Source: Eledone cirrhosa (lineage: Eukaryota). From it: a stretch of 64,000 nt of DNA. The stretch spans positions 91,326,001-91,390,000 of the forward strand of contig OZ024747.1 in the NCBI GenBank assembly GCA_964016885.1. The letters run 5' to 3'. The translations under genes and the position numbers were made by a program. Positions 3,416 through 54,435 of this stretch are shown here, one piece after another (within the stretch, counting starts at the first letter, position 1; every line of letters begins with the position of its first letter). Under the pieces are notes generated by a model. That model had not been told where the DNA came from. It saw only the letters and a list, made by a program, of their open reading frames with translations, and made no database searches.

Positions 3416-3591
3416 ATATATAAGCTGGGATGAATGGAAGCATCATATTACATTAAATTGTAAACCTACTTAAAGCGATTAATAGTCCGAGCTTCTTGTT
3501 TTTGCTACTAGGTTTTCAATTTGTTATCAATGTATTTTTAACCCAAGGTCAGTCCTTGATTGAGCAAACATATGATCAGAAACATTCCAGC

Positions 3592-3748
3592 TAGTGCCGG
3601 ATTTACCATTATGCTTAGGTGTGCTTAAGCACTGGGACCCGTTGGGCAGGGAGGGGCGGCTTATTTTCTTGTGTAAGCCTACTGGGTACAAGTAAGGGTC
3701 TCATAACGTAACTAGCACAGAGCCTCATTTGTCCTAAATACGGTACTG
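3592..3748. mobile_element. hAT-type MITE (157 bp)
   Basis: Imperfect 14-bp TIRs TAGTGCCGGATTTA / TAAATACGGTACTG. Exact 8-bp TSD ATTCCAGC at 3584-3591 and 3749-3756; an 8-bp TSD is typical of hAT elements. Confidence 0.8.
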
Positions 3749-3880
3749 ATTCCAGCTGTGACAATGTCGTCTGTCTCATATATGCAGAGAAACCTTACAC
3801 CACTTTAATCTTCCGGGGCTTTTTCTAAAATGGTAGGGTGAGATTTCAGAGAGATGTGCCTCCTATTTCTCACAGAACGA

Positions 3881-3976
3881 ATGACCACCTGTATGCAACC
3901 TTGCTGCCTCGAGTCCTGCCAACAGATACTTTTGATCATTACTGTAACCTTTTTGCAGCCGTTGCTGTTCTGTTGA
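3881..3976 (+). other. Short ORF MTTCMQPCCLESCQQILLIITVTFLQPLLFC*, signal-peptide-like, one base out of frame with the repeat ORF
   Basis: ATG 3881 follows acceptor-like TCCTATTTCTCACAG (3861-3875). Hydrophobic core is ILLIITVTF. T5 run at 3950-3954; TGA at 3974-3976. Confidence 0.4.
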
Positions 3977-6900
3977 GATCACTACTACAACTGCTAATGC
4001 TACTACAACTGCTAATGCTACTACAACTACTAATGCTACTACAACTACTAATGCTACTACAACTGCTAATGCTACTACAGCTGCTAATGCTACTACAACT
4101 GTTAATGCTACTACAACTACTAATGCTGCTACAACTGCTAATGCTACTACAGCTGCTAATGCTACTACAACTGCTAATGCTACTACAACTGCTAATGCTA
4201 CTACAACTGCTAATGCTACTACAACTGCTAATGCTGCTACAGCTGCTAATGCTACTACAACTGCTAATGCTACTACAACTGCTAATGCTAATACAGCTGC
4301 TAATGCTACTGCAACTGCTAATGCTACTACAACTGATAATGCTGCTATAACTGCTAATGCTGCTACAACTGCTAATGCTGCTATAACTGCTAATGCTACT
4401 ACAACTGCTAATGCTGCTATAACTGCTAATGCTACTACAACTACTAATGATACTACAACTGCTAATGCTACTACAACCGCTAATGCTGCTACAACTGCTA
4501 ATGCTACTACAGCTGCTAATGCTACTACAACTGCTAATGCTACTACAACTGCTAATGCTGCTACAGCTGCTAATGCTACTACAACTGCTAATGCTACTAC
4601 AGCTACTAATGCTACTACAACTGCTAACGCTGCTACAACTGCTAATGCTACTGCAACTGCTAATGCTACTATAAATGCTAATGCTGCTACAACTGCTAAT
4701 GCTACTACAACTGCTAATGCTACTACAACTGCTAATGCTGCTACAACTGCTAATGCTACTACAACTGCTAATGCTACTATAACTGCTAATGCTACTACAA
4801 CTGCTAATGCTACTACAACTGCTAATGCTACTATAACTGCTAATGCTGCTGCAACTGCTAATGCTACTACAACTGCTAATGCTACTACAACTGCTAATGC
4901 TGCTACAGCTGCTAATGCTGCTACAGATGCTAATGCTACTACAGATGCTAATGCTACTACAACTGCTAATGCTGCTACAACTACTAATGCTACTACAACT
5001 ACTAATGCTACTACAACTGCTAATGCTACTATAACTGCTAATGCTGCTGCAACTGCTAATGCTGCTACAACTGCTAATGCTACTACAACTGCTAATGCTA
5101 CTACAACTGCTAATGCTGCTACAGCTGCTAATGCTACTACAACTGCTAATGCTACTACAACTGCTAATGCTACTATAACAGCTAATGCTGCTGCAACTGC
5201 TAATGCTACTACAACTGCTAATGCTACTATAACTGCTAATGCTGCTACAACTGCTAATGCTACTACAACTGCTAATGCTACTATAACTGCTAATGCTGCT
5301 ACAACTGCTAATGCTACTACAACTGCTAATGCTACTACAACTGCTAATGCTACTACAGCTGCTAATGCTACTACAACTGCTAATGCTACTACAACTGCTA
5401 ATGCTACTACAACTGCTAATGCTACTACAGTTGCTAATGCTACTACAACTGCTAATGCTACTACAACTGCTAATGCTACTACAGCTGCTAATGCTACTAC
5501 AACTACTAATGCTACTACAACTGCTAATGCTACTATAACTGCTAATGCTGCTACAACTGCTAATGCTACTACAACTGCTAATGCTACTACAACTGCTAAT
5601 GCTACTACAGCTGCTAATGCTACTACAACTGCTAATGCTACTACAACTGCTAATGCTACTACAACTACTAATGCTACTACAACTGCTAATGCTACTATAA
5701 CTGCTAATGCTGCTACAACTGCTAATGCTACTACAACTGCTAATGCTACTACAACTGCTAATGCTACTACAGCTGCTAATGCTACTACAACTGCTAATGC
5801 TACTACAACTGCTAATGCTACTACAGCTGCTAATGCTACTACAACTGCTAATGCTACTACAGCTACTAATGCTACTACAACTGCTAACGCTGCTACAACT
5901 GCTAATGCTACTACAACTGCTAATGCTACTATAACTGCTAATGCTGCTACAACTGCTAATGCTACTACAACTGCTAATGCTACTACAACTGCTAATGCTG
6001 CTACAACTGCTAATGCTACTACAACTGCTAATGCTACTATAACTGCTAATGCTACTACAACTGCTAATGCTACTACAACTGCTAATGCTACTATAACTGC
6101 TAATGCTGCTGCAACTGCTAATGCTACTACAACTGCTAATGCTACTACAACTGCTAATGCTGCTACAGCTGCTAATGCTGCTACAGCTGCTAATGCTACT
6201 ACAGATGCTAATGATACTACAACTACTAATGCTACTACAACTGCTAATGCTACTATAACTGCTAATGCTGCTGCAACTGCTAATGCTGCTACAACTGCTA
6301 ATGCTACTACAACTGCTAATGCTACTACAACTGCTAATGCTGCTACAGCTGCTAATGCTACTACAACTGCTAATGCTACTACAACTGCTAATGCTACTAT
6401 AACTGCTAATGCTGCTGCAACTGCTAATGCTACTACAACTGCTAATGCTACTATAACTGCTAATGCTGCTACAACTGCTAATGCTACTACAGCTACTAAT
6501 GCTACTACAACTGCTAACGCTGCTACAACTGCTAATGCTACTGCAACTGCTAATGCTACTATAAATGCTAATGCTGCTACAACTGCTAATGCTACTACAA
6601 CTGCTAATGCTACTACAACTGCTAATGCTGCTACAACTGCTAATGCTACTACAACTGCTAATGCTACTATAACTGCTAATGCTACTACAACTGCTAATGC
6701 TACTACAACTGCTAATGCTACTATAACTGCTAATGCTGCTGCAACTGCTAATGCTACTACAACTGCTAATGCTACTACAACTGCTAATGCTGCTACAGCT
6801 GCTAATGCTGCTACAGCTGCTAATGCTACTACAGATGCTAATGCTACTACAACTGCTAATGCTGCTACAACTACTAATGCTACTACAACTACTAATGCTA

Positions 6901-9900
6901 CTACAACTGCTAATGCTACTATAACTGCTAATGCTGCTGCAACTGCTAATGCTGCTACAACTGCTAATGCTACTACAACTGCTAATGCTACTACAACTGC
7001 TAATGCTGCTACAGCTGCTAATGCTACTACAACTGCTAATGCTACTACAACTGCTAATGCTACTATAACAGCTAATGCTGCTGCAACTGCTAATGCTACT
7101 ACAACTGCTAATGCTACTATAACTGCTAATGCTGCTACAACTGCTAATGCTACTACAACTGCTAATGCTACTATAACTGCTAATGCTGCTACAACTGCTA
7201 ATGCTACTACAACTGCTAATGCTACTACAACTGCTAATGCTACTACAGCTGCTAATGCTACTACAACTGCTAATGCTACTACAACTGCTAATGCTACTAC
7301 AACTGCTAATGCTACTACAGTTGCTAATGCTACTACAACTGCTAATGCTACTACAACTGCTAATGCTACTACAGCTGCTAATGCTACTACAACTACTAAT
7401 GCTACTACAACTGCTAATGCTACTATAACTGCTAATGCTGCTACAACTGCTAATGCTACTACAACTGCTAATGCTACTACAACTGCTAATGCTACTACAG
7501 CTGCTAATGCTACTACAACTGCTAATGCTACTACAACTGCTAATGCTACTACAACTACTAATGCTACTACAACTGCTAATGCTACTATAACTGCTAATGC
7601 TGCTACAACTGCTAATGCTACTACAACTGCTAATGCTACTACAACTGCTAATGCTACTACAGCTGCTAATGCTACTACAACTGCTAATGCTACTACAACT
7701 GCTAATGCTACTACAGCTGCTAATGCTACTACAACTGCTAATGCTACTACAGCTACTAATGCTACTACAACTGCTAACGCTGCTACAACTGCTAATGCTA
7801 CTGCAACTGCTAATGCTACTATAACTGCTAATGCTGCTACAACTGCTAATGCTACTACAACTGCTAATGCTACTACAACTGCTAATGCTGCTACAACTGC
7901 TAATGCTACTACAACTGCTAATGCTACTATAACTGCTAATGCTACTACAACTGCTAATGCTACTACAACTGCTAATGCTACTATAACTGCTAATGCTGCT
8001 GCAACTGCTAATGCTACTACAACTGCTAATGCTACTACAACTGCTAATGCTGCTACAGCTGCTAATGCTGCTACAGCTGCTAATGCTACTACAGATGCTA
8101 ATGATACTACAACTACTAATGCTACTACAACTGCTAATGCTACTATAACTGCTAATGCTGCTGCAACTGCTAATGCTGCTACAACTGCTAATGCTACTAC
8201 AACTGCTAATGCTACTACAACTGCTAATGCTGCTACAGCTGCTAATGCTACTACAACTGCTAATGCTACTACAACTGCTAATGCTACTATAACTGCTAAT
8301 GCTGCTGCAACTGCTAATGCTACTACAACTGCTAATGCTACTATAACTGCTAATGCTGCTACAACTGCTAATGCTACTACAACTGCTAATGCTACTATAA
8401 CTGCTAATGCTGCTACAACTGCTAATGCTACTACAACTGCTAATGCTACTACAACTGCTAATGCTACTACAGCTGCTAATGCTACTACAACTGCTAATGC
8501 TACTACAACTGCTAATGCTACTACAACTGCTAATGCTACTACAGTTGCTAATGCTACTACAACTGCTAATGCTACTACAACTGCTAATGCTACTACAGCT
8601 GCTAATGCTACTACAACTACTAATGCTACTACAACTGCTAATGCTACTATAACTGCTAATGCTGCTACAATTGCTAATGCTACTACAACTGCTAATGCTA
8701 CTACAACTGCTAATGCTACTACAGCTGCTAATGCTACTACAACTGCTAATGCTACTACAACTGCTAATGCTACTACAACTACTAATGCTACTACAACTGC
8801 TAATGCTACTATAACTGCTAATGCTGCTACAACTGCTAATGCTACTACAACTGCTAATGCTACTACAACTGCTAATGCTACTACAGCTGCTAATGCTACT
8901 ACAACTGCTAATGCTACTACAACTGCTAATGCTACTACAGCTGCTAATGCTACTACAATTGCTAATGCTACTACAGCTACTAATGCTACTACAACTGCTA
9001 ACGCTGCTACAACTGCTAATGCTACTGCAACTGCTAATGCTACTATAACTGCTAATGCTGCTACAACTGCTAATGCTACTACAACTGCTAATGCTACTAC
9101 AACTGCTAATGCTGCTACAACTGCTAATGCTACTACAACTGCTAATGCTACTATAACTGCTAATGCTACTACAACTGCTAATGCTACTACAACTGCTAAT
9201 GCTACTATAACTGCTAATGCTGCTGCAACTGCTAATGCTACTACAACTGCTAATGCTACTACAACTGCTAATGCTGCTACAGCTGCTAATGCTGCTACAG
9301 CTGCTAATGCTACTACAGATGCTAATGCTACTACAACTACTAATGCTACTACAACTGCTAATGCTACTATAACTGCTAATGCTGCTGCAACTGCTAATGC
9401 TGCTACAACTGCTAATGCTACTACAACTGCTAATGCTACTACAACTGCTAATGCTGCTACAGCTGCTAATGCTACTACAACTGCTAATGTTACTACAACT
9501 GCTAATGCTACTATAACTGCTAATGCTGCTGCAACTGCTAATGCTACTACAACTGCTAATGCTACTATAACTGCTAATGCTGCTACAACTGCTAATGCTA
9601 CTACAACTGCTAATGCTACTATAACTGCTAATGCTACTACAACTGCTAATGCTACTACAACTGCTAATGCTACTACAGCTGCTAATGCTACTACAACTGC
9701 TAATGCTACTACAACTGCTAATGCTACTACAACTGCTAATGCTACTACAGCTGCTAATGCTACTACAACTGCTAATGCTACTACAACTGCTAATGCTACT
9801 ACAGCTGCTAATGCTACTACAACTACTAATGCTACTACAACTGCTAATGCTACTATAACTGCTAATGCTGCTACAACTGCTAATGCTACTACAACTGATA

Positions 9901-12900
9901 ATGCTACTACAACTGCTAATGCTACTACAGCTGCTAATGCTACTACAACTGCTAATGCTACTACAACTGCTAATGCTACTACAACTACTAATGCTACTAC
10001 AACTGCTAATGCTACTATAACTGCTAATGCTGCTACAACTGCTAATGCTACTACAACTGCTAATGCTACTACAACTGCTAATGCTACTACAGCTGCTAAT
10101 GCTACTACAACTGCTAATGCTACTACAACTGCTAATGCTACTACAGCTGCTAATGCTACTACAACTACTAATGCTACTACAACTGCTAATGCTACTACAA
10201 CTGCTAATGCTACTACAACTGCTAATGCTACTACAACTGCTAATGCTGCTACAACTGCTAATGCTACTACAGCTGCTAATGCTACTACAACTGCTAATGC
10301 TGCTACAACTGCTAATGCTACTACAGCTGCTAATGCTACTACAACTGCTAATGCTACTACAGCTGCTAATGCTACTACAGCTGCTAATGCTACTACAACT
10401 GCTAATGCTACTACAACTACTAATGCTACTACAACTGCTAATGCTACTACAACTGCTAATGCTACTACAACTGCTAATGCTACTACAACTGCTAATGCTG
10501 CTACAACTGCTAATGCTACTACAGCTGCTAATGCTACTACAACTGCTAATGCTGCTACAACTGCTAATGCTACTACAGCTGCTAATGCTACTACAACTGC
10601 TAATGCTACTACAGCTGCTAATGCTACTACAACTGCTAATGCTGCTACAACTGCTAATGCTACTACAGCTGCTAATGCTACTACAACTACTAATGCTACT
10701 ACAGCTGCTAGTGCTACTACAGCTGCTAATGCTACTACAACTACTAATGCTACTACAACTGCTAATGCTACTACAGCTGCTAATGCTACTACAGCTGCTA
10801 ATGCTACTACAACTACTAATGCTACTACAACTGCTAATGCTACTACAACTGCTAATGCTACTACAACTGCTAATGCTACTACAACTGCTAATGCTGCTAC
10901 AACTGCTAATGCTACTACAGCTGCTAATGCTACTACAACTGCTAATGCTGCTACAACTGCTAATGCTACTACAGCTGCTAATGCTACTACAGCTGCTAAT
11001 GCTACTACAACTACTAATGCTACTACAGCTGCTAATGCTACTACAGCTGCTAATCCTACTACAACTGCTAATGCTACTACAGCTGCTAATGCTACTACAA
11101 CTGCTAATGCTACTACAGCTGCTCATGCTACTACAACTACTAATGCTAGTACAACTGCTAATGCTACTACAACTGCTAATGCTACTACAGCTGCTAATGC
11201 TACTACAACTGCTAATGTTACTACAGCTGCTAATGATACTACAGCTGCTAATGCTACTACAACTACTAATGCTACTACAGCTGCTAATGCTACTACAGCT
11301 GCTAATGCTACTACAACTACTAATGCTACTACAACTACTAATGCTACTACAGCTGCTAATGCTACTACAACTGCTAATGCTACTACAACTGCTAATGCTA
11401 CTACAGCTGCTAATGCTACTACAACTACTAATGCTACTACAACTGCTAATGCTACTACAACTACTAATGCTACTACAACTACTAATGCTACTACAACTAC
11501 TAATGCTACTACAACTACTAATGCTACTACAACTGCTAATGCTACTACAACTACTAATGCTACTACAACTACTAATGCTACTACAACTACTAATGCTACT
11601 ACAACTGCTAATGCTACTACAACTACTAATGCTACTACAACTACTAATGCTACTACAACTACTAATGCTACTACAGCTGCTAATGCTACTACAACTGCTA
11701 ATGCTACTACAACTGCTAATGCTACTACAGCTGCTAATGCTACTACAACTACTAATGCTACTACAACTGCTAATGCTACTACAGCTGCTAATGCTACTAC
11801 AACTACTAATGCTACTACAACTACTAATGCTACTACAGCTGCTAATGCTACTACAACTGCTAATGCTACTACAACTGCTAATGCTACTACAGCTGCTAAT
11901 GCTACTACAACTGCTAATGCTACTAAAACTACTAATGCTACTACAACTGCTAATGCTACTACAGCTGCTAATGCTACTACAGCTGCTAATGCTACTACAA
12001 CTACTAATGCTACTACAGCTGCTAATGCTACTACAGCTGCTAATGCTACTACAACTGCTAATGCTACTACAACTACTAATGCTACTACAGCTGCTAATGC
12101 TACTACAACTGCTAATGCTACTACAACTGCTAATGCTACTAAAACTACTAATGCTACTACAACTGCTAATGTTACTACAGCTGCTAATGCTACTACAGCT
12201 GCTAATGCTACTACAACTGCTAATGCTACTACAACTACTAATGCTACTACAGCTGCTAATGCTACTACAACTGCTAATGCTACTACAACTGCTAATGCTA
12301 CTACAACTACTAATGCTACTACAACTGCTAATGCTACTAAAACTACTAATGCTACTACAACTGCTCATGCTACTACAACTACTAATGCTACTAAAACTAC
12401 TAATGCTACTACAGCTGCTCATTCTGCTACAACTGCTAATGCTACTACAACTGCTAATGCTACTACAACTGCTAATGCTACTACAACTGCTAATGCTACT
12501 ACAACTACTAATGCTACTACAACTGCTAATGCTACTATAACTGCTAATGCTGCTACAACTGCTAATGCTACTACAACTGCTAATGCTACTACAACTGCTA
12601 ATGCTACTACAGCTGCTAATGCTACTACAACTGCTAATGCTACTACAACTGCTAATGCTACTACAGCTGCTAATGCTACTACAACTGCTAATGCTACTAC
12701 AGCTACTAATGCTACTACAACTGCTAACGCTGCTACAACTGCTAATGCTACTGCAACTGCTAATGCTACTATAACTGCTAATGCTGCTACAACTGCTAAT
12801 GCTACTACAACTGCTAATGCTACTACAACTGCTAATGCTGCTACAACTGCTAATGCTACTACAACTGCTAATGCTACTATAACTGCTAATGCTACTACAA

Positions 12901-15900
12901 CTGCTAATGCTACTACAACTGCTAATGCTACTATAACTGCTAATGCTGCTGCAACTGCTAATGCTACTACAACTGCTAATGCTACTACAACTGCTAATGC
13001 TGCTACAGCTGCTAATGCTGCTACAGCTGCTAATGCTACTACAGATGCTAATGATACTACAACTACTAATGCTACTACAACTGCTAATGCTACTATAACT
13101 GCTAATGCTGCTGCAACTGCTAATGCTGCTACAACTGCTAATGCTACTACAACTGCTAATGCTACTACAACTGCTAATGCTGCTACAGCTGCTAATGCTA
13201 CTACAACTGCTAATGCTACTACAACTGCTAATGCTACTATAACTGCTAATGCTGCTGCAACTGCTAATGCTACTACAACTGCTAATGCTACTATAACTGC
13301 TAATGCTGCTACAACTGCTAATGCTACTACAACTGCTAATGCTACTATAACTGCTAATGCTGCTACAACTGCTAATGCTACTACAACTGCTAATGCTACT
13401 ACAACTGCTAATGCTACTACAGCTGCTAATGCTACTACAACTGCTAATGCTACTACAACTGCTAATGCTACTACAACTGCTAATGCTACTACAGTTGCTA
13501 ATGCTACTACAACTGCTAATGCTACTACAACTGCTAATGCTACTACAGCTGCTAATGCTACTACAACTACTAATGCTACTACAACTGCTAATGCTACTAT
13601 AACTGCTAATGCTGCTACAATTGCTAATGCTACTACAACTGCTAATGCTACTACAACTGCTAATGCTACTACAGCTGCTAATGCTACTACAACTGCTAAT
13701 GCTACTACAACTGCTAATGCTACTACAACTACTAATGCTACTACAACTGCTAATGCTACTATAACTGCTAATGCTGCTACAACTGCTAATGCTACTACAA
13801 CTGCTAATGCTACTACAACTGCTAATGCTACTACAGCTGCTAATGCTACTACAACTGCTAATGCTACTACAACTGCTAATGCTACTACAGCTGCTAATGC
13901 TACTACAACTGCTAATGCTACTACAGCTACTAATGCTACTACAACTGCTAACGCTGCTACAACTGCTAATGCTACTGCAACTGCTAATGCTACTATAACT
14001 GCTAATGCTGCTACAACTGCTAATGCTACTACAACTGCTAATGCTACTACAACTGCTAATGCTGCTACAACTGCTAATGCTACTACAACTGCTAATGCTA
14101 CTATAACTGCTAATGCTACTACAACTGCTAATGCTACTACAACTGCTAATGCTACTATAACTGCTAATGCTGCTGCAACTGCTAATGCTACTACAACTGC
14201 TAATGCTACTACAACTGCTAATGCTGCTACAGCTGCTAATGCTGCTACAGCTGCTAATGCTACTACAGATGCTAATGCTACTACAACTACTAATGCTACT
14301 ACAACTGCTAATGCTACTATAACTGCTAATGCTGCTGCAACTGCTAATGCTGCTACAACTGCTAATGCTACTACAACTGCTAATGCTACTACAACTGCTA
14401 ATGCTGCTACAGCTGCTAATGCTACTACAACTGCTAATGTTACTACAACTGCTAATGCTACTATAACTGCTAATGCTGCTGCAACTGCTAATGCTACTAC
14501 AACTGCTAATGCTACTATAACTGCTAATGCTGCTACAACTGCTAATGCTACTACAACTGCTAATGCTACTACAACTGCTAATGCTACTACAACTGCTAAT
14601 GCTACTACAACTGCTAATGCTACTACAACTGCTAATGCTACTACAACTACTAATGCTACTACAGCTGCTAATGCTACTACAACTGCTAATGCTACTACAA
14701 CTGCTAATGCTACTAAAACTACTAATGCTACTACAACTGCTAATGCTACTACAACTGCTAATGCTACTAAAACTACTAATGCTACTACAACTGCTAATGC
14801 TACTACAGCTGCTAATGCTACTACAGCTGCTAATGCTACTACAACTGCTAATGCTACTACAACTACTAATGCTACTACAGCTGCTAATGCTACTACAACT
14901 GCTAATGCTACTACAACTGCTAATGCTACTACAACTACTAATGCTTCTACAACTGCTAATGCTACTAAAACTACTAATGCTACTACAACTGCTCATGCTA
15001 CTACAACTACTAATGCTACTAAAACTACTAATGCTACTACAGCTGCTCATTCTACTACAACTGCTAATGCTACTACAACTGCTAATGCTACTACAACTGC
15101 TAATGCTACTACAACTGCTAATGCTACTACAACTACTAATGCTACTACAACTGCTAATGCTACTATAACTGCTAATGCTGCTACAACTGCTAATGCTACT
15201 ACAACTGCTAATGCTACTACAACTGCTAATGCTACTACAGCTGCTAATGCTACTACAACTGCTAATGCTACTACAACTGCTAATGCTACTACAGCTGCTA
15301 ATGCTACTACAACTGCTAATGCTACTACAGCTACTAATGCTACTACAACTGCTAACGCTGCTACAACTGCTAATGCTACTGCAACTGCTAATGCTACTAT
15401 AACTGCTAATGCTGCTACAACTGCTAATGCTACTACAACTGCTAATGCTACTACAACTGCTAATGCTGCTACAATTGCTAATGCTACTACAACTGCTAAT
15501 GCTACTATAACTGCTAATGCTACTACAACTGCTAATGCTACTACAACTGCTAATGCTACTATAACTGCTAATGCTGCTGCAACTGCTAATGCTACTACAA
15601 CTGCTAATGCTACTACAACTGCTAATGCTGCTACAGCTGCTAATGCTGCTACAGCTGCTAATGCTACTACAGATGCTAATGATACTACAACTACTAATGC
15701 TACTACAACTGCTAATGCTACTATAACTGCTAATGCTGCTGCAACTGCTAATGCTGCTACAACTGCTAATGCTACTACAACTGCTAATGCTACTACAACT
15801 GCTAATGCTGCTACAGCTGCTAATGCTACTACAACTGCTAATGCTACTACAACTGCTAATGCTACTATAACTGCTAATGCTGCTGCAACTGCTAATGCTA

Positions 15901-18900
15901 CTACAACTGCTAATGCTACTATAACTGCTAATGCTGCTACAACTGCTAATGCTACTACAACTGCTAATGCTACTATAACTGCTAATGCTGCTACAACTGC
16001 TAATGCTACTACAACTGCTAATGCTACTACAACTGCTAATGCTACTACAACTGCTAATGCTACTACAGCTGCTAATGCTACTACAACTACTAATGCTACT
16101 ACAACTGCTAATGCTACTATAACTGCTAATGCTGCTACAATTGCTAATGCTACTACAACTGCTAATGCTACTACAACTGCTAATGCTACTACAGCTGCTA
16201 ATGCTACTACAACTGCTAATGCTACTACAACTGCTAATGCTACTACAACTACTAATGCTACTACAACTGCTAATGCTACTATAACTGCTAATGCTGCTAC
16301 AACTGCTAATGCTACTACAACTGCTAATGCTACTACAACTGCTAATGCTACTACAGCTGCTAATGCTACTACAACTGCTAATGCTACTACAACTGCTAAT
16401 GCTACTACAGCTGCTAATGCTACTACAACTGCTAATGCTACTACAGCTACTAATGCTACTACAACTGCTAACGCTGCTACAACTGCTAATGCTACTGCAA
16501 CTGCTAATGCTACTATAACTGCTAATGCTGCTACAACTGCTAATGCTACTACAACTGCTAATGCTACTACAACTGCTAATGCTGCTACAACTGCTAATGC
16601 TACTACAACTGCTAATGCTACTATAACTGCTAATGCTACTACAACTGCTAATGCTACTACAACTGCTAATGCTACTATAACTGCTAATGCTGCTGCAACT
16701 GCTAATGCTACTACAACTGCTAATGCTACTACAACTGCTAATGCTGCTACAGCTGCTAATGCTGCTACAGCTGCTAATGCTACTACAGATGCTAATGCTA
16801 CTACAACTACTAATGCTACTACAACTGCTAATGCTACTATAACTGCTAATGCTGCTGCAACTGCTAATGCTGCTACAACTGCTAATGCTACTACAACTGC
16901 TAATGCTACTACAACTGCTAATGCTGCTACAGCTGCTAATGCTACTACAACTGCTAATGTTACTACAACTGCTAATGCTACTATAACTGCTAATGCTGCT
17001 GCAACTGCTAATGCTACTACAACTGCTAATGCTACTACAACTGCTAATGCTACTATAACTGCTAACGCTGCTACAACTGCTAATGCTACTGCAACTGCTA
17101 ATGCTACTATAACTGCTAATGCTGCTACAACTGCTAATGCTACTACAACTGCTAATGCTACTACAACTGCTAATGCTGCTACAACTGCTAATGCTACTAC
17201 AACTGCTAATGCTACTATAACTGCTAATGCTACTACAACTGCTAATGCTACTACAACTGCTAATGCTACTATAACTGCTAATGCTGCTGCAACTGCTAAT
17301 GCTACTACAACTGCTAATGCTACTACAACTGCTAATGCTGCTACAGCTGCTAATGCTGCTACAGCTGCTAATGCTACTACAGATGCTAATGCTACTACAA
17401 CTACTAATGCTACTACAACTGCTAATGCTACTATAACTGCTAATGCTGCTGCAACTGCTAATGCTGCTACAACTGCTAATGCTACTACAACTGCTAATGC
17501 TACTACAACTGCTAATGCTGCTACAGCTGCTAATGCTACTACAACTGCTAATGTTACTACAACTGCTAATGCTACTATAACTGCTAATGCTGCTGCAACT
17601 GCTAATGCTACTACAGCTGCTAATGCTACTACAGCTGCTAATGCTACTACAACTGCTAATGCTACTACAACTACTAATGCTACTACAGCTGCTAATGCTA
17701 CTACAACTGCTAATGCTACTACAACTGCTAATGCTACTACAACTACTAATGCTACTACAACTGCTAATGCTACTAAAACTACTAATGCTACTACAACTGC
17801 TCATGCTACTACAACTACTAATGCTACTAAAACTACTAATGCTACTACAGCTGCTCATTCTACTACAACTGCTAATGCTACTACAACTGCTAATGCTACT
17901 ACAACTGCTAATGCTACTACAACTGCTAATCCTACTACAACTACTAATGCTACTACAACTGCTAATGCTACTATAACTGCTAATGCTGCTACAACTGCTA
18001 ATGCTACTACAACTGCTAATGCTACTACAACTGCTAATGCTACTACAGCTGCTAATGCTACTACAACTGCTAATGCTACTACAACTGCTAATGCTACTAC
18101 AGCTGCTAATGCTACTACAACTGCTAATGCTACTACAGCTACTAATGCTACTACAACTGCTAACGCTGCTACAACTGCTAATGCTACTGCAACTGCTAAT
18201 GCTACTATAACTGCTAATGCTGCTACAACTGCTAATGCTACTACAACTGCTAATGCTACTACAACTGCTAATGCTGCTACAACTGCTAATGCTACTACAA
18301 CTGCTAATGCTACTATAACTGCTAATGCTACTACAACTGCTAATGCTACTACAACTGCTAATGCTACTATAACTGCTAATGCTGCTGCAACTGCTAATGC
18401 TACTACAACTGCTAATGCTACTACAACTGCTAATGCTGCTACAGCTGCTAATGCTGCTACAGCTGCTAATGCTACTACAGATGCTAATGATACTACAACT
18501 ACTAATGCTACTACAACTGCTAATGCTACTATAACTGCTAATGCTGCTGCAACTGCTAATGCTGCTACAACTGCTAATGCTACTACAACTGCTAATGCTA
18601 CTACAACTGCTAATGCTGCTACAGCTGCTAATGCTACTACAACTGCTAATGCTACTACAACTGCTAATGCTACTATAACTGCTAATGCTGCTGCAACTGC
18701 TAATGCTACTACAACTGCTAATGCTACTATAACTGCTAATGCTGCTACAACTGCTAATGCTACTACAACTGCTAATGCTACTATAACTGCTAATGCTGCT
18801 ACAACTGCTAATGCTACTACAACTGCTAATGCTACTACAACTGCTAATGCTACTACAGCTGCTAATGCTACTACAACTGCTAATGCTACTACAACTGCTA

Positions 18901-21900
18901 ATGCTACTACAACTGCTAATGCTACTACAGTTGCTAATGCTACTACAACTGCTAATGCTACTACAACTGCTAATGCTACTACAGCTGCTAATGCTACTAC
19001 AACTACTAATGCTACTACAACTGCTAATGCTACTATAACTGCTAATGCTGCTACAATTGCTAATGCTACTACAACTGCTAATGCTACTACAACTGCTAAT
19101 GCTACTACAGCTGCTAATGCTACTACAACTGCTAATGCTACTACAACTGCTAATGCTACTACAACTACTAATGCTACTACAACTGCTAATGCTACTATAA
19201 CTGCTAATGCTGCTACAACTGCTAATGCTACTACAACTGCTAATGCTACTACAACTGCTAATGCTACTACAGCTGCTAATGCTACTACAACTGCTAATGC
19301 TACTACAACTGCTAATGCTACTACAGCTGCTAATGCTACTACAACTGCTAATGCTACTACAGCTACTAATGCTACTACAACTGCTAACGCTGCTACAACT
19401 GCTAATGCTACTGCAACTGCTAATGCTACTATAACTGCTAATGCTGCTACAACTGCTAATGCTACTACAACTGCTAATGCTACTACAACTGCTAATGCTG
19501 CTACAACTGCTAATGCTACTACAACTGCTAATGCTACTATAACTGCTAATGCTACTACAACTGCTAATGCTACTACAACTGCTAATGCTACTATAACTGC
19601 TAATGCTGCTGCAACTGCTAATGCTACTACAAATGCTAATGCTACTACAACTGCTAATGCTGCTACAGCTGCTAATGCTGCTACAGCTGCTAATGCTACT
19701 ACAGATGCTAATGCTACTACAACTACTAATGCTACTACAACTGCTAATGCTACTATAACTGCTAATGCTGCTGCAACTGCTAATGCTGCTACAACTGCTA
19801 ATGCTACTACAACTGCTAATGCTACTACAACTGCTAATGCTGCTACAGCTGCTAATGCTACTACAACTGCTAATGTTACTACAACTGCTAATGCTACTAT
19901 AACTGCTAATGCTGCTGCAACTGCTAATGCTACTACAACTGCTAATGCTACTATAACTGCTAATGCTGCTACAACTGCTAATGCTACTACGACTGCTAAT
20001 GCTACTACAACTGCTAATGCTACTACAACTGCTAATGCTACTACAACTGCTAATGCTACTACAACTGCTAATGCTACTACAACTACTAATGCTACTACAG
20101 CTGCTAATGCTACTACAACTGCTAATGCTACTACAACTGCTAATGCTACTAAAACTACTAATGCTACTACAACTGCTAATGCTACTACAACTGCTAATGC
20201 TACTAAAACTACTAATGCTACTACAACTGCTAATGCTACTACAGCTGCTAATGCTACTACAGCTGCTAATGCTACTACAACTGCTAATGCTACTACAACT
20301 ACTAATGCTACTACAGCTGCTAATGCTACTACAACTGCTAATGCTACTACAACTGCTAATGCTACTACAACTACTAATGCTACTACAACTGCTAATGCTA
20401 CTAAAACTACTAATGCTACTACAACTGCTCATGCTACTACAACTACTAATGCTACTAAAACTACTAATGCTACTACAGCTGCTCATTCTACTACAACTGC
20501 TAATGCTACTACAACTGCTAATGCTACTACAACTGCTAATGCTACTACAACTGCTAATGCTACTACAACTACTAATGCTACTACAACTGCTAATGCTACT
20601 ATAACTGCTAATGCTGCTACAACTGCTAATGCTACTACAACTGCTAATGCTACTACAACTGCTAATGCTACTACAGCTGCTAATGCTACTACAACTGCTA
20701 ATGCTACTACAACTGCTAATGCTACTACAGCTGCTAATGCTACTACAACTGCTAATGCTACTACAGCTACTAATGCTACTACAACTGCTAACGCTGCTAC
20801 AACTGCTAATGCTACTGCAACTGCTAATGCTACTATAACTGCTAATGCTGCTACAACTGCTAATGCTACTACAACTGCTAATGCTACTACAACTGCTAAT
20901 GCTGCTACAACTGCTAATGCTACTACAACTGCTAATGCTACTATAACTGCTAATGCTACTACAACTGCTAATGCTACTACAACTGCTAATGCTACTATAA
21001 CTGCTAATGCTGCTGCAACTGCTAATGCTACTACAACTGCTAATGCTACTACAACTGCTAATGCTGCTACAGCTGCTAATGCTGCTACAGCTGCTAATGC
21101 TACTACAGATGCTAATGATACTACAACTACTAATGCTACTACAACTGCTAATGCTACTATAACTGCTAATGCTGCTGCAACTGCTAATGCTGCTACAACT
21201 GCTAATGCTACTACAACTGCTAATGCTACTACAACTGCTAATGCTGCTACAGCTGCTAATGCTACTACAACTGCTAATGCTACTACAACTGCTAATGCTA
21301 CTATAACTGCTAATGCTGCTGCAACTGCTAATGCTACTACAACTGCTAATGCTACTATAACTGCTAATGCTGCTACAACTGCTAATGCTACTACAACTGC
21401 TAATGCTACTATAACTGCTAATGCTGCTACAACTGCTAATGCTACTACAACTGCTAATGCTACTACAACTGCTAATGCTACTACAACTGCTAATGCTACT
21501 ACAGCTGCTAATGCTACTACAACTACTAATGCTACTACAACTGCTAATGCTACTATAACTGCTAATGCTGCTACAATTGCTAATGCTACTACAACTGCTA
21601 ATGCTACTACAACTGCTAATGCTACTACAGCTGCTAATGCTACTACAACTGCTAATGCTACTACAACTGCTAATGCTACTACAACTACTAATGCTACTAC
21701 AACTGCTAATGCTACTATAACTGCTAATGCTGCTACAACTGCTAATGCTACTACAACTGCTAATGCTACTACAACTGCTAATGCTACTACAGCTGCTAAT
21801 GCTACTACAACTGCTAATGCTACTACAACTGCTAATGCTACTACAGCTGCTAATGCTACTACAACTGCTAATGCTACTACAGCTACTAATGCTACTACAA

Positions 21901-24900
21901 CTGCTAACGCTGCTACAACTGCTAATGCTACTGCAACTGCTAATGCTACTATAACTGCTAATGCTGCTACAACTGCTAATGCTACTACAACTGCTAATGC
22001 TACTACAACTGCTAATGCTGCTACAACTGCTAATGCTACTACAACTGCTAATGCTACTATAACTGCTAATGCTACTACAACTGCTAATGCTACTACAACT
22101 GCTAATGCTACTATAACTGCTAATGCTGCTGCAACTGCTAATGCTACTACAACTGCTAATGCTACTACAACTGCTAATGCTGCTACAGCTGCTAATGCTG
22201 CTACAGCTGCTAATGCTACTACAGATGCTAATGCTACTACAACTACTAATGCTACTACAACTGCTAATGCTACTATAACTGCTAATGCTGCTGCAACTGC
22301 TAATGCTGCTACAACTGCTAATGCTACTACAACTGCTAATGCTACTACAACTGCTAATGCTGCTACAGCTGCTAATGCTACTACAACTGCTAATGTTACT
22401 ACAACTGCTAATGCTACTATAACTGCTAATGCTGCTGCAACTGCTAATGCTACTACAACTGCTAATGCTACTATAACTGCTAATGCTGCTACAACTGCTA
22501 ATGCTACTACAACTGCTAATGCTACTATAACTGCTAATGCTACTACAACTGCTAATGCTACTACAACTGCTAATGCTACTACAGCTGCTAATGCTACTAC
22601 AACTGCTAATGCTACTACAACTGCTAATGCTACTACAACTGCTAATGCTACTACAGCTGCTAATGCTACTACAACTGCTAATGCTACTACAACTGCTAAT
22701 GCTACTACAGCTGCTAATGCTACTACAACTACTAATGCTACTACAACTGCTAATGCTACTATAACTGCTAATGCTGCTACAACTGCTAATGCTACTACAA
22801 CTGATAATGCTACTACAACTGCTAATGCTACTACAGCTGCTAATGCTACTACAACTGCTAATGCTACTACAACTGCTAATGCTACTACAACTACTAATGC
22901 TACTACAACTGCTAATGCTACTATAACTGCTAATGCTGCTACAACTGCTAATGCTACTACAACTGCTAATGCTACTACAACTGCTAATGCTACTACAGCT
23001 GCTAATGCTACTACAACTGCTAATGCTACTACAAATGCTAATGCTACTACAGCTGCTAATGCTACTACAACTACTAATGCTACTACAACTGCTAATGCTA
23101 CTACAACTGCTAATGCTACTACAACTGCTAATGCTACTACAACTGCTAATGCTGCTACAACTGCTAATGCTACTACAGCTGCTAATGCTACTACAACTGC
23201 TAATGCTGCTACAACTGCTAATGCTACTACAGCTGCTAATGCTACTACAACTGCTAATGCTACTACAGCTGCTAATGCTACTACAACTGCTAATGCTACT
23301 ACAGCTGCTAATGCTACTACAGCTGCTAATGCTACTACAACTACTAATGCTACTACAACTGCTAATGCTACTACAACTGCTAATGCTACTACAACTGCTA
23401 ATGCTACTACAACTGCTAATGCTGCTACAACTGCTAATGCTACTACAGCTGCTAATGCTACTACAACTGCTAATGCTGCTACAACTGCTAATGCTACTAC
23501 AGCTGCTAATGCTACTACAACTGCTAATGCTACTACAACTGCTAATGCTACTACAGCTGCTCATGCTACTACAACTACTAATGCTAGTACAACTGCTAAT
23601 GCTACTACAACTGCTAATGCTACTACAGCTGCTAATGCTACTACAACTGCTAATGCTACTACAGCTGCTAATGCTACTACAGCTGCTAATGCTACTACAA
23701 CTACTAATGCTACTACAGCTGCTAATGCTACTACAGCTGCTAATGCTACTACAACTACTAATGCTACTACAACTACTAATGCTACTACAGCTGCTAATGC
23801 TACTACAACTGCTAATGCAACTACAGCTGCTAATGCTACTACAACTACTAATGCTACTACAACTACTAATGCTACTACAGCTGCTAATGCTACTACAACT
23901 GATAATGCTACTACAACTGCTAATGCTACTAAATCTACTAATGCTACTACAACTGCTAATGCTACTACAGCTGCTAATGCTACTACAGCTGCTAATGCTA
24001 CTACAACTACTAATGCTACTACAGCTGCTAATGCTACTACAGCTGCTAATGCTACTACAACTGCTAATGCTACTACAACTACTAATGCTACTACAGCTGC
24101 TAATGCTACTACAACTGCTAATGCTACTACAACTGCTAATGCTACTAAAACTACTAATGCTACTACAACTGCTAATGCTACTACAGCTGCTAATGCTACT
24201 ACAGCTGCTAATGCTACTACAACTGCTAATGCTACTACAACTACTAATGCTACTACAGCTGCTAATGCTACTACAACTGCTAATGCTACTACAACTGCTA
24301 ATGCTACTACAACTACTAATGCTACTACAACTGCTAATGCTACTAAAACTACTAATGCTACTACAACTGCTCATGCTACTACAACTACTAATGCTACTAA
24401 AACTACTAATGCTACTACAGCTGCTCATTCTACTACAACTGCTAATGCTACTACAACTGCTAATGCTACTACAACTGCTAATGCTACTACAACTGCTAAT
24501 GCTACTACAACTACTAATGCTACTACAACTGCTAATGCTACTATAACTGCTAATGCTGCTACAACTGCTAATGCTACTACAACTGCTAATGCTACTACAA
24601 CTGCTAATGCTACTACAGCTGCTAATGCTACTACAACTGCTAATGCTACTACAACTGCTAATGCTACTACAGCTGCTAATGCTACTACAACTACTAATGC
24701 TACTACAACTGCTAATGCTACTACAACTGCTAATGCTACTACAACTGCTAATGCTACTACAACTGCTAACGCTGCTATAACTGCTAATGCTACTACAACT
24801 GCTAATGCTACTACAGCTGCTAATGCTACTACAACTGCTAATGCTACTACAGCTGCTAATGCTGCTACAGCTGCTAATGCTACTACAACTGCTAATGCTA

Positions 24901-25388
24901 CTACAGCTGCTAATGCTACTATAACTGCTAATGCTGCTACAACTGCTCATGCTATTACAGCTGCTCATGCTACTACAACTGCTCATGCTACTACAACTGC
25001 TAATGCTACTACAACTGCTAATGCTACTACAACTGCTAATGCTACTACAACTACTAATGCTACTACAACTGCTAATGCTACTACAGCTGCTAATGCTACT
25101 ACAACTACTAATGCTACTACAACTACTAATGCTACTACAGCTGCTAATGCTACTACAACTGCTAATGCTACTACAACTGCTAATGCTACTACAGCTGCTA
25201 ATGCTACTACAACTGCTAATGCTACTACAACTGCTAATGCTGCTATAACTGCTAATGCTACTACAACTGCTAATGCTACTACAGCTGCTAATGCTACTAC
25301 AGCTGCTAATGCTACTACAACTACTAATGCTGCTACTGCTGTTGCGGCTGCTACCACCACCACTACCATCACTCCTACTACCACTTAG
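3959..25388 (+). CDS. Candidate giant Thr/Ala/Asn hexapeptide-repeat glycoprotein exon, (ANATTT)n, ~7,140 aa; not in the ORF track
   Basis: Frame 3 reads CGT TGC TGT TCT GTT GAG ATC ACT ACT ACA ACT GCT AAT (RCCSVEITTTTAN) from 3960. I saw no stop among the unit variants. It ends in the non-repetitive TNAATAVAAATTTTTITPTTT with mixed Thr codons, then TAG 25386-25388. It is preceded by acceptor TTTTGCAG (3951-3958) and an out-of-frame signal-peptide-like ORF. No expression evidence is available. Confidence 0.6.
3981..25337. repeat. 18-bp tandem array (consensus GCTAATGCTACTACAACT), 1,186 units, with higher-order duplications
   Basis: First Asn codon at 3996 and last at 25326 differ by 21330 = 1185 x 18. 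Interior markers (e.g. 9000, 12420, 24768) stay in register. Confidence 0.99.
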
Positions 25389-25461
25389 ACATGCCAATCA
25401 ATTTTTTGTTTAATCTACCTCTCAAGTATGTTGAGACACTGAACCGAAACCTACATTGAAA

Positions 25462-25965: not shown

Positions 25966-26586
25966 GATACTATAATTGCTAAGTGAGAATCTTAAACATT
26001 CGGCCAGGCTACATCTACCTAGTCTGTTTACATTGATATAATTGATACTATGATTGCTATGTGAGAATCTTAAACATTCGGCCAGGCTACATCTACCTAG
26101 TCTGTTTACATTGATATAATTGATACTATGATTTCTAAGTGAGAATCTTAAACATTCGGCCAGGCTACATCTACCTAGTCTGTTTACATTGATGCAATTG
26201 ATATTATCATTGCTATGTGAGAATCTTAAACATTCGGCCAGGCTACATCTACCTAGTCTGTTTACATTGATGCAATTGATATTATGATTGCTAAGTGAGA
26301 ATCTTAAACATTCGGCCAGGCTACATCTACCTAATCTGTTTACATTGATGCAATCGATACTATGATTGCTAAGTGAGAATCTTAAACATTCGGCCAGGCT
26401 ACATCTACCTAATCTGTTTACATTGATGCAATCGATACTATGATTGCTAAGTGAGAATCTTAAACATTCGGCCAGGCTATATCTACCTAGTCTGTTTACA
26501 TTGATGCAATTGATACTATGATTGCGATGTGAGAATCTTAGATTCTGCCAGGCTACATCTACCAAGTCTGTTTACATTGATATAAT
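25966..26586. repeat. 78-bp minisatellite, ~8 copies
   Basis: TGAGAATCTTA recurs at 25984, 26062, 26140, 26218, 26296, 26374, 26452 and 26530. The units are near-identical. Confidence 0.97.
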
Positions 26587-52455: not shown

Positions 52456-53967
52456 CTATCCGTTAGGGTATAACGTGGGGCTGTAATACAGGAAAGTTTT
52501 GTGCAATTTATGTTTACAAGCCGAAATTGCCTCAGATTTTTTGTTTAAGATGTGGTCTGTGGCGTAGAGTATTTCCAGGGCCTCAGCGGCGCAGAGGTCA
52601 AATGGTCTTTTATTTCCGTTATACGATCTAGCCCCCGCTAGGATCTCCCAGTGTAACTTATATTGGGTGTGGTTGTCTTTTAGACTCCAGATATAAGCTG
52701 AAAGTGACGTCATATTCCTTCTAAGAGGGTAACGAAAAGAATGGGTATGCATGTAAAGACGCTGCTTGAATCTATTGGCGGTTAACCCTATGTAGGCCCT
52801 ACGGGACGTGGGTGATACAACCTTACATTTGTAGACAATGTTACTAGAGAGGCAATTCCCGGATAGGGGGCAATCAACCCGATTCCTACAATTACAGTTA
52901 GTACTAACTTCAGGGTTGCACGTGTTCCTACGGCTAGGTAGTTTAGCTAAATTTGAAGCTGTGATGTTATGTGCAAGGTTAGGAGTCGTAGAGTAAGACA
53001 TATTAATAGTATTTCTATTAAAAATTTTACTATATTTATGTGTACGGGGAAAATGCTTCGTAATAAGGGAAAGAAAGATCTTAGCTAATGGTGTGGCCAC
53101 CTCCATATTATATGGTGAGTTATACCAACAAATGCGACGGGATCTATTTCTTCTAGGTCTATTTTCGTACTCTGTATATGCTACCTTATCGACAAATCCA
53201 CTTCGAGCAAGAGGTTCATTGTAATAAGTGGAATGGTCGTTGAAAATACGCTTGTTGGTGGAAAGACGGGAAAGCCTCAACGAAACGTTTCTGACCAGGT
53301 TCTTGGTTATGCTGGCAGGATGGTTGGAATGCTTACTTATGTAATTAAGCGTATCATTCGGCTTTCTATACGGGTAATACAACCCATTCAATAAGTTGAG
53401 GGTAACGTCGAGGTAATTAACGACCGAGAGATTGGCCTCAACCTGTATAGAGAGGTTGAAGCCTTTAAAGAAGGCTGTGAGTTCTTCTCTGAACCTGTCG
53501 CAAGCACGAGGTCCGCACTTAGTCATGGTCAAAAGACCATCGTCACGGTACAAACCACCGCCCGCGTTGGGGAATTCGTCCTTGATAGAGAAAAGAAGGA
53601 AAAGGCCGATAAGATCAGTAACCTCCGCAGAATCGCTGGCGCCCATACTCACGTCGAATGGGGTACTATTGGATTTTTTAATCCAAATAGAGTCGTCGAA
53701 ATTAATCACCGACTTTCGAGCATTGAGGATGACATCAACCTTGAAATCCTTAACCACTGTGAGTGTTTTAGCGAAATTGATAGCTCTAAGGAGAAGTGGT
53801 AAAGTGATGGAGGAGTAGTAATTGTTGATGTCGAATTGGATAAAGCGGCAATGTTCTTTGTTACATATGCCGTTGAACCAATCAATCACCGCGAAGGAAT
53901 TGTTCCACAGTGTAAGAGGGGCCAAGCTTCTAATTTCAGGTATAATTCTATCAAGAATCGTCTTACT
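52456..53967 (-). CDS. Penelope-like reverse transcriptase (partial) plus GIY-YIG endonuclease
   Basis: FIQFDINNYYSSI, VSMGASDSAEVTDLIG, LYRDDGL, NYLDVTL, SNHP, CNCRNRVDCPLSGNC and NIVYKC...YIGLT...FKQRLYMH. The frame stays open upstream (SKTILDRIIPEIRS) to the inversion junction. The track start at 53925 is TTG, not a true start. Confidence 0.92.
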   Translation of the reverse strand, partial: SKTILDRIIPEIRSLAPLTLWNNSFAVIDWFNGICNKEHCRFIQFDINNYYSSITLPLLLRAINFAKTLTVVKDFKVDVILNARKSVINFDDSIWIKKSNSTPFDVSMGASDSAEVTDLIGLFLLFSIKDEFPNAGGGLYRDDGLLTMTKCGPRACDRFREELTAFFKGFNLSIQVEANLSVVNYLDVTLNLLNGLYYPYRKPNDTLNYISKHSNHPASITKNLVRNVSLRLSRLSTNKRIFNDHSTYYNEPLARSGFVDKVAYTEYENRPRRNRSRRICWYNSPYNMEVATPLAKIFLSLITKHFPRTHKYSKIFNRNTINMSYSTTPNLAHNITASNLAKLPSRRNTCNPEVSTNCNCRNRVDCPLSGNCLSSNIVYKCKVVSPTSRRAYIGLTANRFKQRLYMHTHSFRYPLRRNMTSLSAYIWSLKDNHTQYKLHWEILAGARSYNGNKRPFDLCAAEALEILYATDHILNKKSEAISACKHKLHKTFLYYSPTLYPNG

Positions 53968-54435
53968 TATTTATTTATTTCTATTTATTTATTTATTTAT
54001 TTATTTATTTCTATTACTTCTGTATTGTATTTATTTACTTTGTTCTTAACTCTGTAGCCGAGATTCATTCGGTCTCCTAGTTAGAATTTAGTCTACGACT
54101 TCTGCTATACCATTTACGTGATTTTGTCTTTGCGTGCTATTGTTCTCCACGCTCCACATATGACGTAGTATCTTCGTTTTTTCGTTCTTTGCCAGAGAAC
54201 GTCTCTATGCACCACCTAAGAGAACATTAGTCTACGACCTCTTTTATACCATAAACGTGGTTCTGTCTTTGCGCGTAATTGCTTTTCACCGCTCCTATTA
54301 ATGACGTATTATATTCGTTTTTTCCCGTTCTTAGCCAGCGAACGTTTCCACGAACCAAAGTATCGTCTTCCTGTCTTCCTCCGGTTGCAACGTTTTTTGA
54401 AATATCCAGTTCTGCGTTTACAGATTGACTTTGTT

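What the first reader, a model, noticed from the sequence alone, without database searches (positions are those of the whole stretch)
3861..3995. Signal-peptide-like leader exactly one T out of frame with the giant repeat ORF
Seen: acceptor-like TCCTATTTCTCACAG (3861-3875), then ATG 3881 reading MTTCMQPCCLESCQQILLIITVTF into a T5 run (3950-3954). Removing one T gives ...QQILLIITVTFCSRCCS/VEITTTTANATTT, a plausible n/h/c signal peptide fused to the whole repeat. The same T run also forms an acceptor (CTGTAACCTTTTTGCAG, exon from 3959, phase 2). Alternatives: a homopolymer assembly error, a polymorphic null allele, splicing from an upstream exon, or a +1 slip on ACC-UUU-UUG. Established analogy: the de novo codfish AFGP gene joined its signal peptide to the repeat through a 1-nt frameshift. 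The locus could be a proto-gene or an on/off allele (inference).
Basis: partly seen in the sequence, partly recalled or inferred. Interest (0 to 1): 0.75.

Follow-up and report, generated by a model that had tools for sequence, protein, structure and literature searches.

The report
Chance leader beside giant minisatellite
A signal-peptide-like stretch does sit one base out of step with a 21,000-base repeat, and the extra base is real, but the stretch starts in a decayed dispersed repeat and is likely a coincidence in non-coding DNA rather than a gene waiting to be switched on.

Summary
The coordinates and translations are right. T5 is not an assembly error: contigs from 3 of 3 runs of one sample cross it without a gap, on a haplotype that differs at 3885. 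The first acceptor, the ATG and the first ten codons are the tail of a decayed dispersed repeat. The hydrophobic core is a T-rich, AG-free tract that also looks like an intron end. The giant frame is open by construction: 0 of 54 single changes make a stop, and variants show no purifying selection. No RNA, SignalP or sister-species test was possible. Best reading: a young triplet-derived minisatellite with a chance leader (0.63). Rivals: a spliced terminal exon from 3959 (0.23) and a broken or T4 allele (0.08). The scan's earlier, unchecked notes describe giant coding repeat exons elsewhere in this genome, but none at this place or on like DNA.

The parts
3520..3591 (+). Left part of a decayed dispersed repeat (no ORF seen)
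   Evidence: nhmmer 22.8 bits, E 6.5e-9, profile positions 148-216, wholly outside the 25-mer used to collect the 30 copies; raised contig depth at 3545-3584
3592..3748 (.). 157-bp MITE inserted into that repeat, with an 8-bp target-site duplication at 3584-3591 and 3749-3756
   Evidence: 39 other matches at 73-79% identity among 40 scored of 1,479 candidates; loose ends at 3593 and 3748 in contigs; arms and duplication read
3749..3910 (+). Right part of the same decayed repeat; holds the 3861-3875 'acceptor', ATG 3881 and the first ten codons of the leader
   Evidence: nhmmer 22.9 bits, E 6.4e-9, profile positions 207-366; 203 exact genomic copies of a family 25-mer, 0 for the reversed control; ATG at the matching place in 1 of 30 copies
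3881..3976 (+). Short native ORF (31 residues; 40 from the in-frame ATG at 3854): the 'leader'
3926..3958 (+). T-rich, AG-free tract. It gives the 9-residue hydrophobic core in the leader frame and is also an acceptor-like end (branch-point-like motif 3932-3936, CAG 3956-3958)
3950..3954 (+). T5 run, the same length in the assembly and in sample S1
   Evidence: contigs over 3710/3713-3995 with 0 gaps in X1, X2 and X3
3982..25336 (.). Single-locus array of about 1,185 18-bp units, no indel of any size, with exact higher-order blocks of up to 93 units
   Evidence: 195 of 195 genomic matches of a 42-mer lie in the window
3948..25388 (+). Stop-free Thr/Ala/Asn frame (959 N-X-S/T sequons). A Ser-rich frame on the other strand (3939-25397) is equally open
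25325..25385 (.). Remnant of a generic degenerate triplet microsatellite at the 3' end of the array
   Evidence: 62 other matches in G000; the 4 loci fetched are triplet microsatellites with long open frames

Best explanation
The array is a single-locus 18-bp minisatellite, recently amplified inside a degenerate triplet microsatellite, and it is likely non-coding, so the out-of-frame leader is likely a chance product of a repeat remnant (which supplies the ATG) and a T-rich tract (which supplies the hydrophobic core). Shown: the array's structure and uniqueness, the repeat origin of the 3875 acceptor and the ATG, T5 on two haplotypes, and a frame that single substitutions cannot close. Inferred: growth by unequal exchange or slippage in whole units (from the exact higher-order blocks), and absence of translation.
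For: (1) The acceptor, ATG and codons 1-10 align to a dispersed-repeat profile; ATG is at that place in 1 of 30 copies. (2) 0 of 54 single changes from the commonest unit make a stop in the Thr frame, and 1 of 54 in the antisense Ser frame, so both open frames are built in. (3) 21 non-synonymous and 5 synonymous distinct changes, against 7.9 synonymous expected at random; third positions carry 20 of 860 variant bases. A nearby triplet array shows the same frozen third base, 669 of 679. (4) All 5 other triplet arrays examined in 264 kb have a frame open over 90% or more of their length. (5) 8 of 15 other minisatellites in 464 kb also show 0% indels, 6 of them with periods not divisible by 3. 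(6) No secreted-protein or mucin domain in 431 plus-strand stop-free stretches over 300 kb upstream; the hits at or above cut-off were retroelement domains, one C2H2 finger in a three-copy repeat and one RHS hit on a tandem repeat. (7) Signal-peptide-like first exons upstream number 8 on the plus strand against 28 on the control strand, none nearer than 40 kb. (8) T-rich non-genic DNA is reported to yield hydrophobic peptides readily (PMC7005711, abstract).
Against: The leader is rare at random sites (0.3-0.8% strict), and 0 of 15 open-frame ends of the 5 control arrays had one. The 3958 acceptor with branch motif and AG-free zone would fall in the 34 open bases by chance about 1-1.5% of the time. 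An acceptor-like site raises the chance of such a leader only to 8 of 836 (strict) or 47 of 836 (loose), so one feature does not fully explain the other. The local neutral indel:substitution ratio is 0.11 (101/891), so about 3 indels would be expected for 26 distinct substitutions; none is seen, and the control minisatellites are far shorter. The Pfam scan left out short, AT-rich and microsatellite-containing stretches, and it would miss an exon that encodes only a signal peptide. Unchecked scan notes describe real giant repeat exons in this genome.
Confidence: 0.63

Rival explanations
1. The array is the last coding exon of a secreted, heavily N- and O-glycosylated mucin-like protein. It would be spliced at 3958/3959 (phase 2) from upstream exons not yet found, and the 'signal peptide' would be intron sequence read by accident.
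For: CAG with 8 of 11 pyrimidines, a branch-point-like motif at -23 and a 31-base AG-free zone; about 1-1.5% by chance in the open stretch. No indel in 1,185 units and 959 sequons. Giant terminal repeat exons are noted elsewhere in this genome (unchecked).
Against: No domain exon in 431 upstream stretches and no excess of signal-peptide exons. No synonymous excess. The frame ends in a generic microsatellite remnant with no C-terminal domain. The first AATAAA is 1.3 kb past the stop. No homologue at E <= 0.001 (weak for low-complexity queries).
Confidence: 0.23
2. A real gene of signal peptide plus repeat existed, or exists in other individuals, and this haplotype carries a one-base insertion that silences it (null allele or young pseudogene).
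For: The leader is one slip from frame, which is rare at random sites. It has a 9-residue core of mean hydropathy 2.97 and a (-3,-1) site. Precedent: the gadid AFGP T indel.
Against: T5 on both haplotypes seen. The ATG lies in a repeat remnant with weak context, and there is no TATA motif in 3421-3880. The n-region is long and acidic. The frame can be restored at 26 places, so the T is not special. No purifying signal in the repeat.
Confidence: 0.08
3. Ribosomes slip +1 on the Phe codon in the T run and make small amounts of the fused protein.
For: P-site tRNA-Phe could re-pair perfectly one base on (sequence). +1 slips on a Phe codon are known at 1-2% (PMC5644247, passages).
Against: The E-site and A-site codons differ from the known UCC_UUU_CGU site, and that paper says both affect efficiency. 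The route needs a transcript and use of a weak ATG. No conservation data.
Confidence: 0.03
4. The fifth T is an assembly error and the true sequence is in frame.
For: Homopolymers are error-prone in long-read assemblies (general knowledge).
Against: One contig in each of X1, X2 and X3 (depth 3.4, 6.6, 2.1) crosses the run with 0 gaps and no indel row, and carries a different base at 3885. The three runs are one sample and their library is not on record.
Confidence: 0.01

Closest known systems
Gadid antifreeze glycoprotein gene and its non-coding homologues (Zhuang et al. 2019, PMC6410882; passages read)
   Same: A Thr/Ala-rich repeat amplified in the middle of triplet-rich, minisatellite-like DNA; latent hydrophobic sequence just upstream; a one-base offset; an in-frame TAG in the 3' flank.
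   Different: In cod the deleted-T form is found in functional genes, a promoter was gained and the product has a known function. Here only the out-of-frame state is seen, the ATG lies in a repeat remnant, the unit is a hexapeptide with Asn, and no transcript or function is known.
Non-coding minisatellites derived from degenerate triplet microsatellites (general knowledge; local examples)
   Same: Single locus, fixed unit length, higher-order blocks, open frames on both strands, frozen third base; 2.6 Mb from the end of a 94-Mb contig.
   Different: About ten times longer than the largest other array seen in 464 kb. Copy-number variation between individuals was not tested.
Giant PTS exons of mucins (recalled), and the giant repeat exons in this scan's notes on the same genome (e1-8668265, e1-8665157; unchecked)
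   Same: A 20-kb stop-free Thr-rich frame with an acceptor-like site at its start.
   Different: Those are tied to recognisable domain exons. None was found here in 300 kb upstream or after the repeat.
PA-X/ASXL1-type +1 frameshift site UCC_UUU_CGU (PMC5644247; passages)
   Same: A Phe codon that can re-pair in the +1 frame, followed by a long +1 ORF.
   Different: The flanking E-site and A-site codons differ, and no conservation is shown.

Membership tests
Gadid-type de novo signal-peptide plus repeat gene | Signal peptide and repeat joined in one reading frame in at least some genomes | tested here: not met
   T5 in the assembly and in sample S1; only two haplotypes seen; RAD runs gave no cover
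Gadid-type de novo signal-peptide plus repeat gene | Repeat amplified from a short element within triplet-rich non-coding DNA | tested here: met
   3' remnant is a generic triplet microsatellite
Gadid-type de novo signal-peptide plus repeat gene | Promoter and transcription | tested here: inconclusive
   No TATA motif in 3421-3880; no RNA run could be laid on the locus
Eukaryotic signal peptide | Hydrophobic core of 7-15 residues and small residues at -3 and -1 (recalled rule) | tested here: met
   9-residue core, mean Kyte-Doolittle 2.97, passes my (-3,-1) rule in the slipped reading
Eukaryotic signal peptide | Short, usually basic n-region and a good start context (recalled rule) | tested here: not met
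   15 residues, 0 K/R, 1 E; pyrimidine at -3 for ATG 3881 and ATG 3893
Eukaryotic signal peptide | Positive call by SignalP or a secretion assay | not testable with these tools
   No such predictor is offered
Mucin (PTS-domain) gene | Long Pro/Thr/Ser-rich tandem-repeat frame | tested here: met
   3,057 Thr of 7,146 codons
Mucin (PTS-domain) gene | Flanking domains (VWD, SEA, NIDO/AMOP, EGF, cystine knot or transmembrane; recalled) | tested here: not met
   None in 431 upstream plus-strand stretches; the frame stops right after the repeat. The scan was filtered and is not exhaustive
Mucin (PTS-domain) gene | Spliced transcript that includes the repeat exon | not testable with these tools
   No RNA run was available to lay
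PA-X/ASXL1-type +1 frameshift site | UCC_UUU_CGU or a close variant, conserved across species | tested here: not met
   Only the Phe codon matches; conservation could not be tested
Minisatellite/VNTR | Head-to-tail units of 10-100 bp at one locus | tested here: met
Minisatellite/VNTR | Copy number varies between individuals | not testable with these tools
   Needs long reads from several animals

The most novel reading that the evidence does not exclude
The locus is an invertebrate gene birth caught one base short of completion, or segregating as an on/off allele: a repeat-derived ATG plus a T-rich tract form a working signal peptide, and a one-base deletion allele in other individuals or a sister species secretes a 7,100-residue glycoprotein with about 960 N-glycan sites.
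Probability: 0.07. Interest if true: 0.75.

Novelty: not a real feature. Interest (0 to 1): 0.17.

Why it matters
On the best reading it is a caution. Triplet-derived minisatellites give giant open frames for free, and T-rich or repeat-derived flanks give signal-peptide look-alikes at a rate of about one in a hundred to one in twenty. If the spliced-exon rival holds, it is one more giant glycoprotein exon in this genome. If a T4 allele exists and is expressed, it would be a second, living case of the codfish route to a new secreted gene, testable by simple genotyping.

Tried and rejected
Expression: no RNA holder was listed among 20 runs for 3425-4100; this blank is no evidence either way. Other individuals: RAD runs X18-X20 and contig run X4 gave 1 partial read in all and no cover of the T run; X9 matched only the MITE. 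Protein searches: the slipped reading against longer proteins gave 0 of 7,988 candidates at E <= 0.001. The natural C-terminal stretch gave 4 of 7,987 at E 0.03-0.23, none informative. No language-model look-alike search is available for the slipped reading, so that question stays open. A genome-wide count of similar triplet arrays was not obtained, so only local controls are given. A host gene on the minus strand downstream: 0 of 150 stretches (of 179 selected) reached a Pfam cut-off. Minus-strand stretches upstream and plus-strand stretches downstream were not scanned. The antisense Ser/Cys frame as the true gene: the common variants are synonymous there (620 of 860 bases), but distinct changes are at chance (4 against 4.7 expected) and no in-frame ATG precedes the repeat; rejected. 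One search had an off-by-one bug in my script and was superseded. Literature searches (listings only, apart from the three papers opened) showed nothing on this locus or on an octopus analogue; subscription journals are not covered, and no supplements were read. Folding or complex prediction of a low-complexity repeat was judged uninformative and not run.

Full report
Setting. The window is G000:C7:91326001-91390000 in a 3.0-Gb animal genome, 2.6 Mb from the end of a 94-Mb contig. That the animal is an octopod comes from my recall of its SINEs and from unchecked scan notes, not from a test of my own.

Observation. Every coordinate in the finding is right. The leader from ATG 3881 stops after 31 residues as it stands. 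A one-base slip in T3950-3954 joins it to the 7,146-codon frame 3948-25388. CAG ends at 3958, which would give a phase-2 exon from 3959.

T4 or T5. Logan contigs of X1, X2 and X3 (one sample, library not on record) each cross 3710/3713-3995 in one piece with 0 gaps, and no indel is listed. They carry T where the window has C at 3885, so a second haplotype also has T5. Depth is low (3.4, 6.6, 2.1), and contigs drop rare variants. X9 matched only the MITE. RAD runs of three other samples and X4 did not cover the site. Assembly error is therefore very unlikely, and polymorphism is untested beyond two haplotypes.

Where the leader comes from. The stretch 3819-3875 matched two other loci. A 25-mer from one of them has 203 exact genomic copies and 0 for the reversed control. 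A profile of the first 30 copies aligns to 3520-3593 and 3749-3910, with contiguous profile positions 148-216 and 207-366. The left hit lies wholly outside the anchoring 25-mer; the right hit includes it and so is partly built in. Between them sits a 157-bp MITE with an 8-bp target-site duplication. The 3875 'acceptor', the ATG and codons 1-10 are thus the tail of an old dispersed repeat. ATG stands at the matching ungapped place in 1 of 30 copies. This does not forbid exaptation, but it removes the 3875 site as independent evidence, and that site also lacks a branch-point motif.

How good the signal peptide is. SignalP was not available. The core has 9 residues with mean hydropathy 2.97, and a (-3,-1) site follows in the slipped reading. 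The n-region has 15 residues, no K/R and one E, and both ATG 3881 and ATG 3893 have a pyrimidine at -3. The core is exactly the T-rich tract 3926-3952. T-rich non-genic DNA is reported to give hydrophobic peptides readily in yeast (PMC7005711, abstract only). In flanking DNA free of simple repeats, an equally good leader one homopolymer slip away occurs at 27 (runs of 5 or more) or 72 (runs of 4 or more) of 9,471 overlapping anchors. Looser cut-offs give 174 and 310 of 9,471, and any single indel gives 103 and 186 of 2,318 (one search gave like figures with another filter). None of 15 open-frame ends of 5 control arrays had one. The T is not unique, since 26 single deletions in 3946-3976 do the same.

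Is the repeat a gene? It is a single-locus array: 195 of 195 genomic matches of a 42-mer lie in the window. It has about 1,185 18-bp units of 44 kinds, 4% from the commonest unit, with exact blocks of up to 93 units repeated at multi-kilobase lags, which points to recent amplification. No single change from the commonest unit makes a stop in the Thr frame (0 of 54), and only 1 of 54 does in the antisense Ser frame, which is equally open. Distinct changes are 21 non-synonymous and 5 synonymous, against 7.9 expected (P of 5 or fewer = 0.06), so there is no purifying signal. The frozen third base recurs in a nearby triplet array, 669 of 679, though less so in three others. All 5 control triplet arrays have near-full open frames. 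The 3' end is a generic triplet microsatellite with 62 other matches. The lack of indels is mildly surprising, since about 3 would be expected at the local ratio of 101 gaps to 891 mismatches. However, 8 of 15 neighbouring minisatellites also show 0% by TRF, 6 with periods not divisible by three; all are much shorter.

The spliced-exon rival. The 3958 site has 8 of 11 pyrimidines, a branch-point-like motif at -23 and a 31-base AG-free zone. Such a site would fall in the 34 open bases before the array about 1-1.5% of the time, again scored after the fact. Given such a site, a leader one slip away appears at 8 or 47 of 836 anchors, so the two features are only partly linked; they cannot both be in use in one transcript. 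Scan notes on giant repeat exons in this genome (unchecked) made me extend the search upstream. Of 431 plus-strand stop-free stretches over 300 kb, chosen by length, GC and complexity, those at or above a Pfam cut-off were LINE endonuclease and RT, two zf-RVT, one C2H2 finger in a three-copy repeat and one RHS hit on a 30-bp tandem array. Signal-peptide-like first exons numbered 8 on the plus strand and 28 on the control strand; the 3 of phase 2 lie 40, 43 and 183 kb away. No partner exon was found, but the search is not exhaustive.

The +1 slip. The known site gives 1-2% and depends on its E-site and A-site codons (PMC5644247, passages). Only the Phe codon is shared here.

Comparison. The codfish analogy is accurately cited: latent signal-peptide DNA was joined to a microsatellite-like repeat by loss of a T (PMC6410882, passages). 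This locus resembles the non-coding ancestral state described there. It fails the defining test of a joined frame in the two haplotypes seen.

Verdict. Non-coding minisatellite with a chance leader 0.63, spliced terminal exon 0.23, broken or T4 allele 0.08, +1 slip 0.03, assembly error 0.01. These odds are my judgement. Interest 0.17; RNA reads and genotyping of 3946-3976 would settle it.

Noticed in passing
window 3592-3748: MITE with about 14-bp imperfect inverted ends and an 8-bp target-site duplication (hAT-like by recall), inserted into an older dispersed repeat; also abundant in organism B (run X9).
   Followed up: partly
window 3982-25336: The common variants of the unit are A/G changes at first positions of the plus-strand triplets. 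They are synonymous in the antisense Ser/Cys frame (620 of 860 variant bases) and are probably exchange between the unit's own ACT and GCT triplets.
   Followed up: partly
   Followed up: partly
window 25427-25432: Donor-like GTATGT about 40 bases after the stop codon of the long frame.
   Followed up: no
window 25966-26581: 78-bp tandem array, 7.9 copies, no indels, open for 281 codons on the minus strand; no Pfam match.
   Followed up: partly
L045:1-5063 (15-20 kb upstream of the window): LINE copy on the plus strand with zinc knuckle, endonuclease and RT, broken by stops.
   Followed up: no
L053:6184-6516, L110:6254-6559, L116:6694-6864: Three copies (84-92% alike) of a dispersed repeat that carries a single C2H2 finger.
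   Followed up: partly
L116:13-804 and L117:6439-9999, minus strand: Long ORFs that look like a Helitron Rep/helicase by eye (recalled likeness, not scanned).
   Followed up: no
window 52459-53970, minus strand: 504-codon ORF that looks like a Penelope-type RT by eye; no Pfam match at E 0.01.
   Followed up: no
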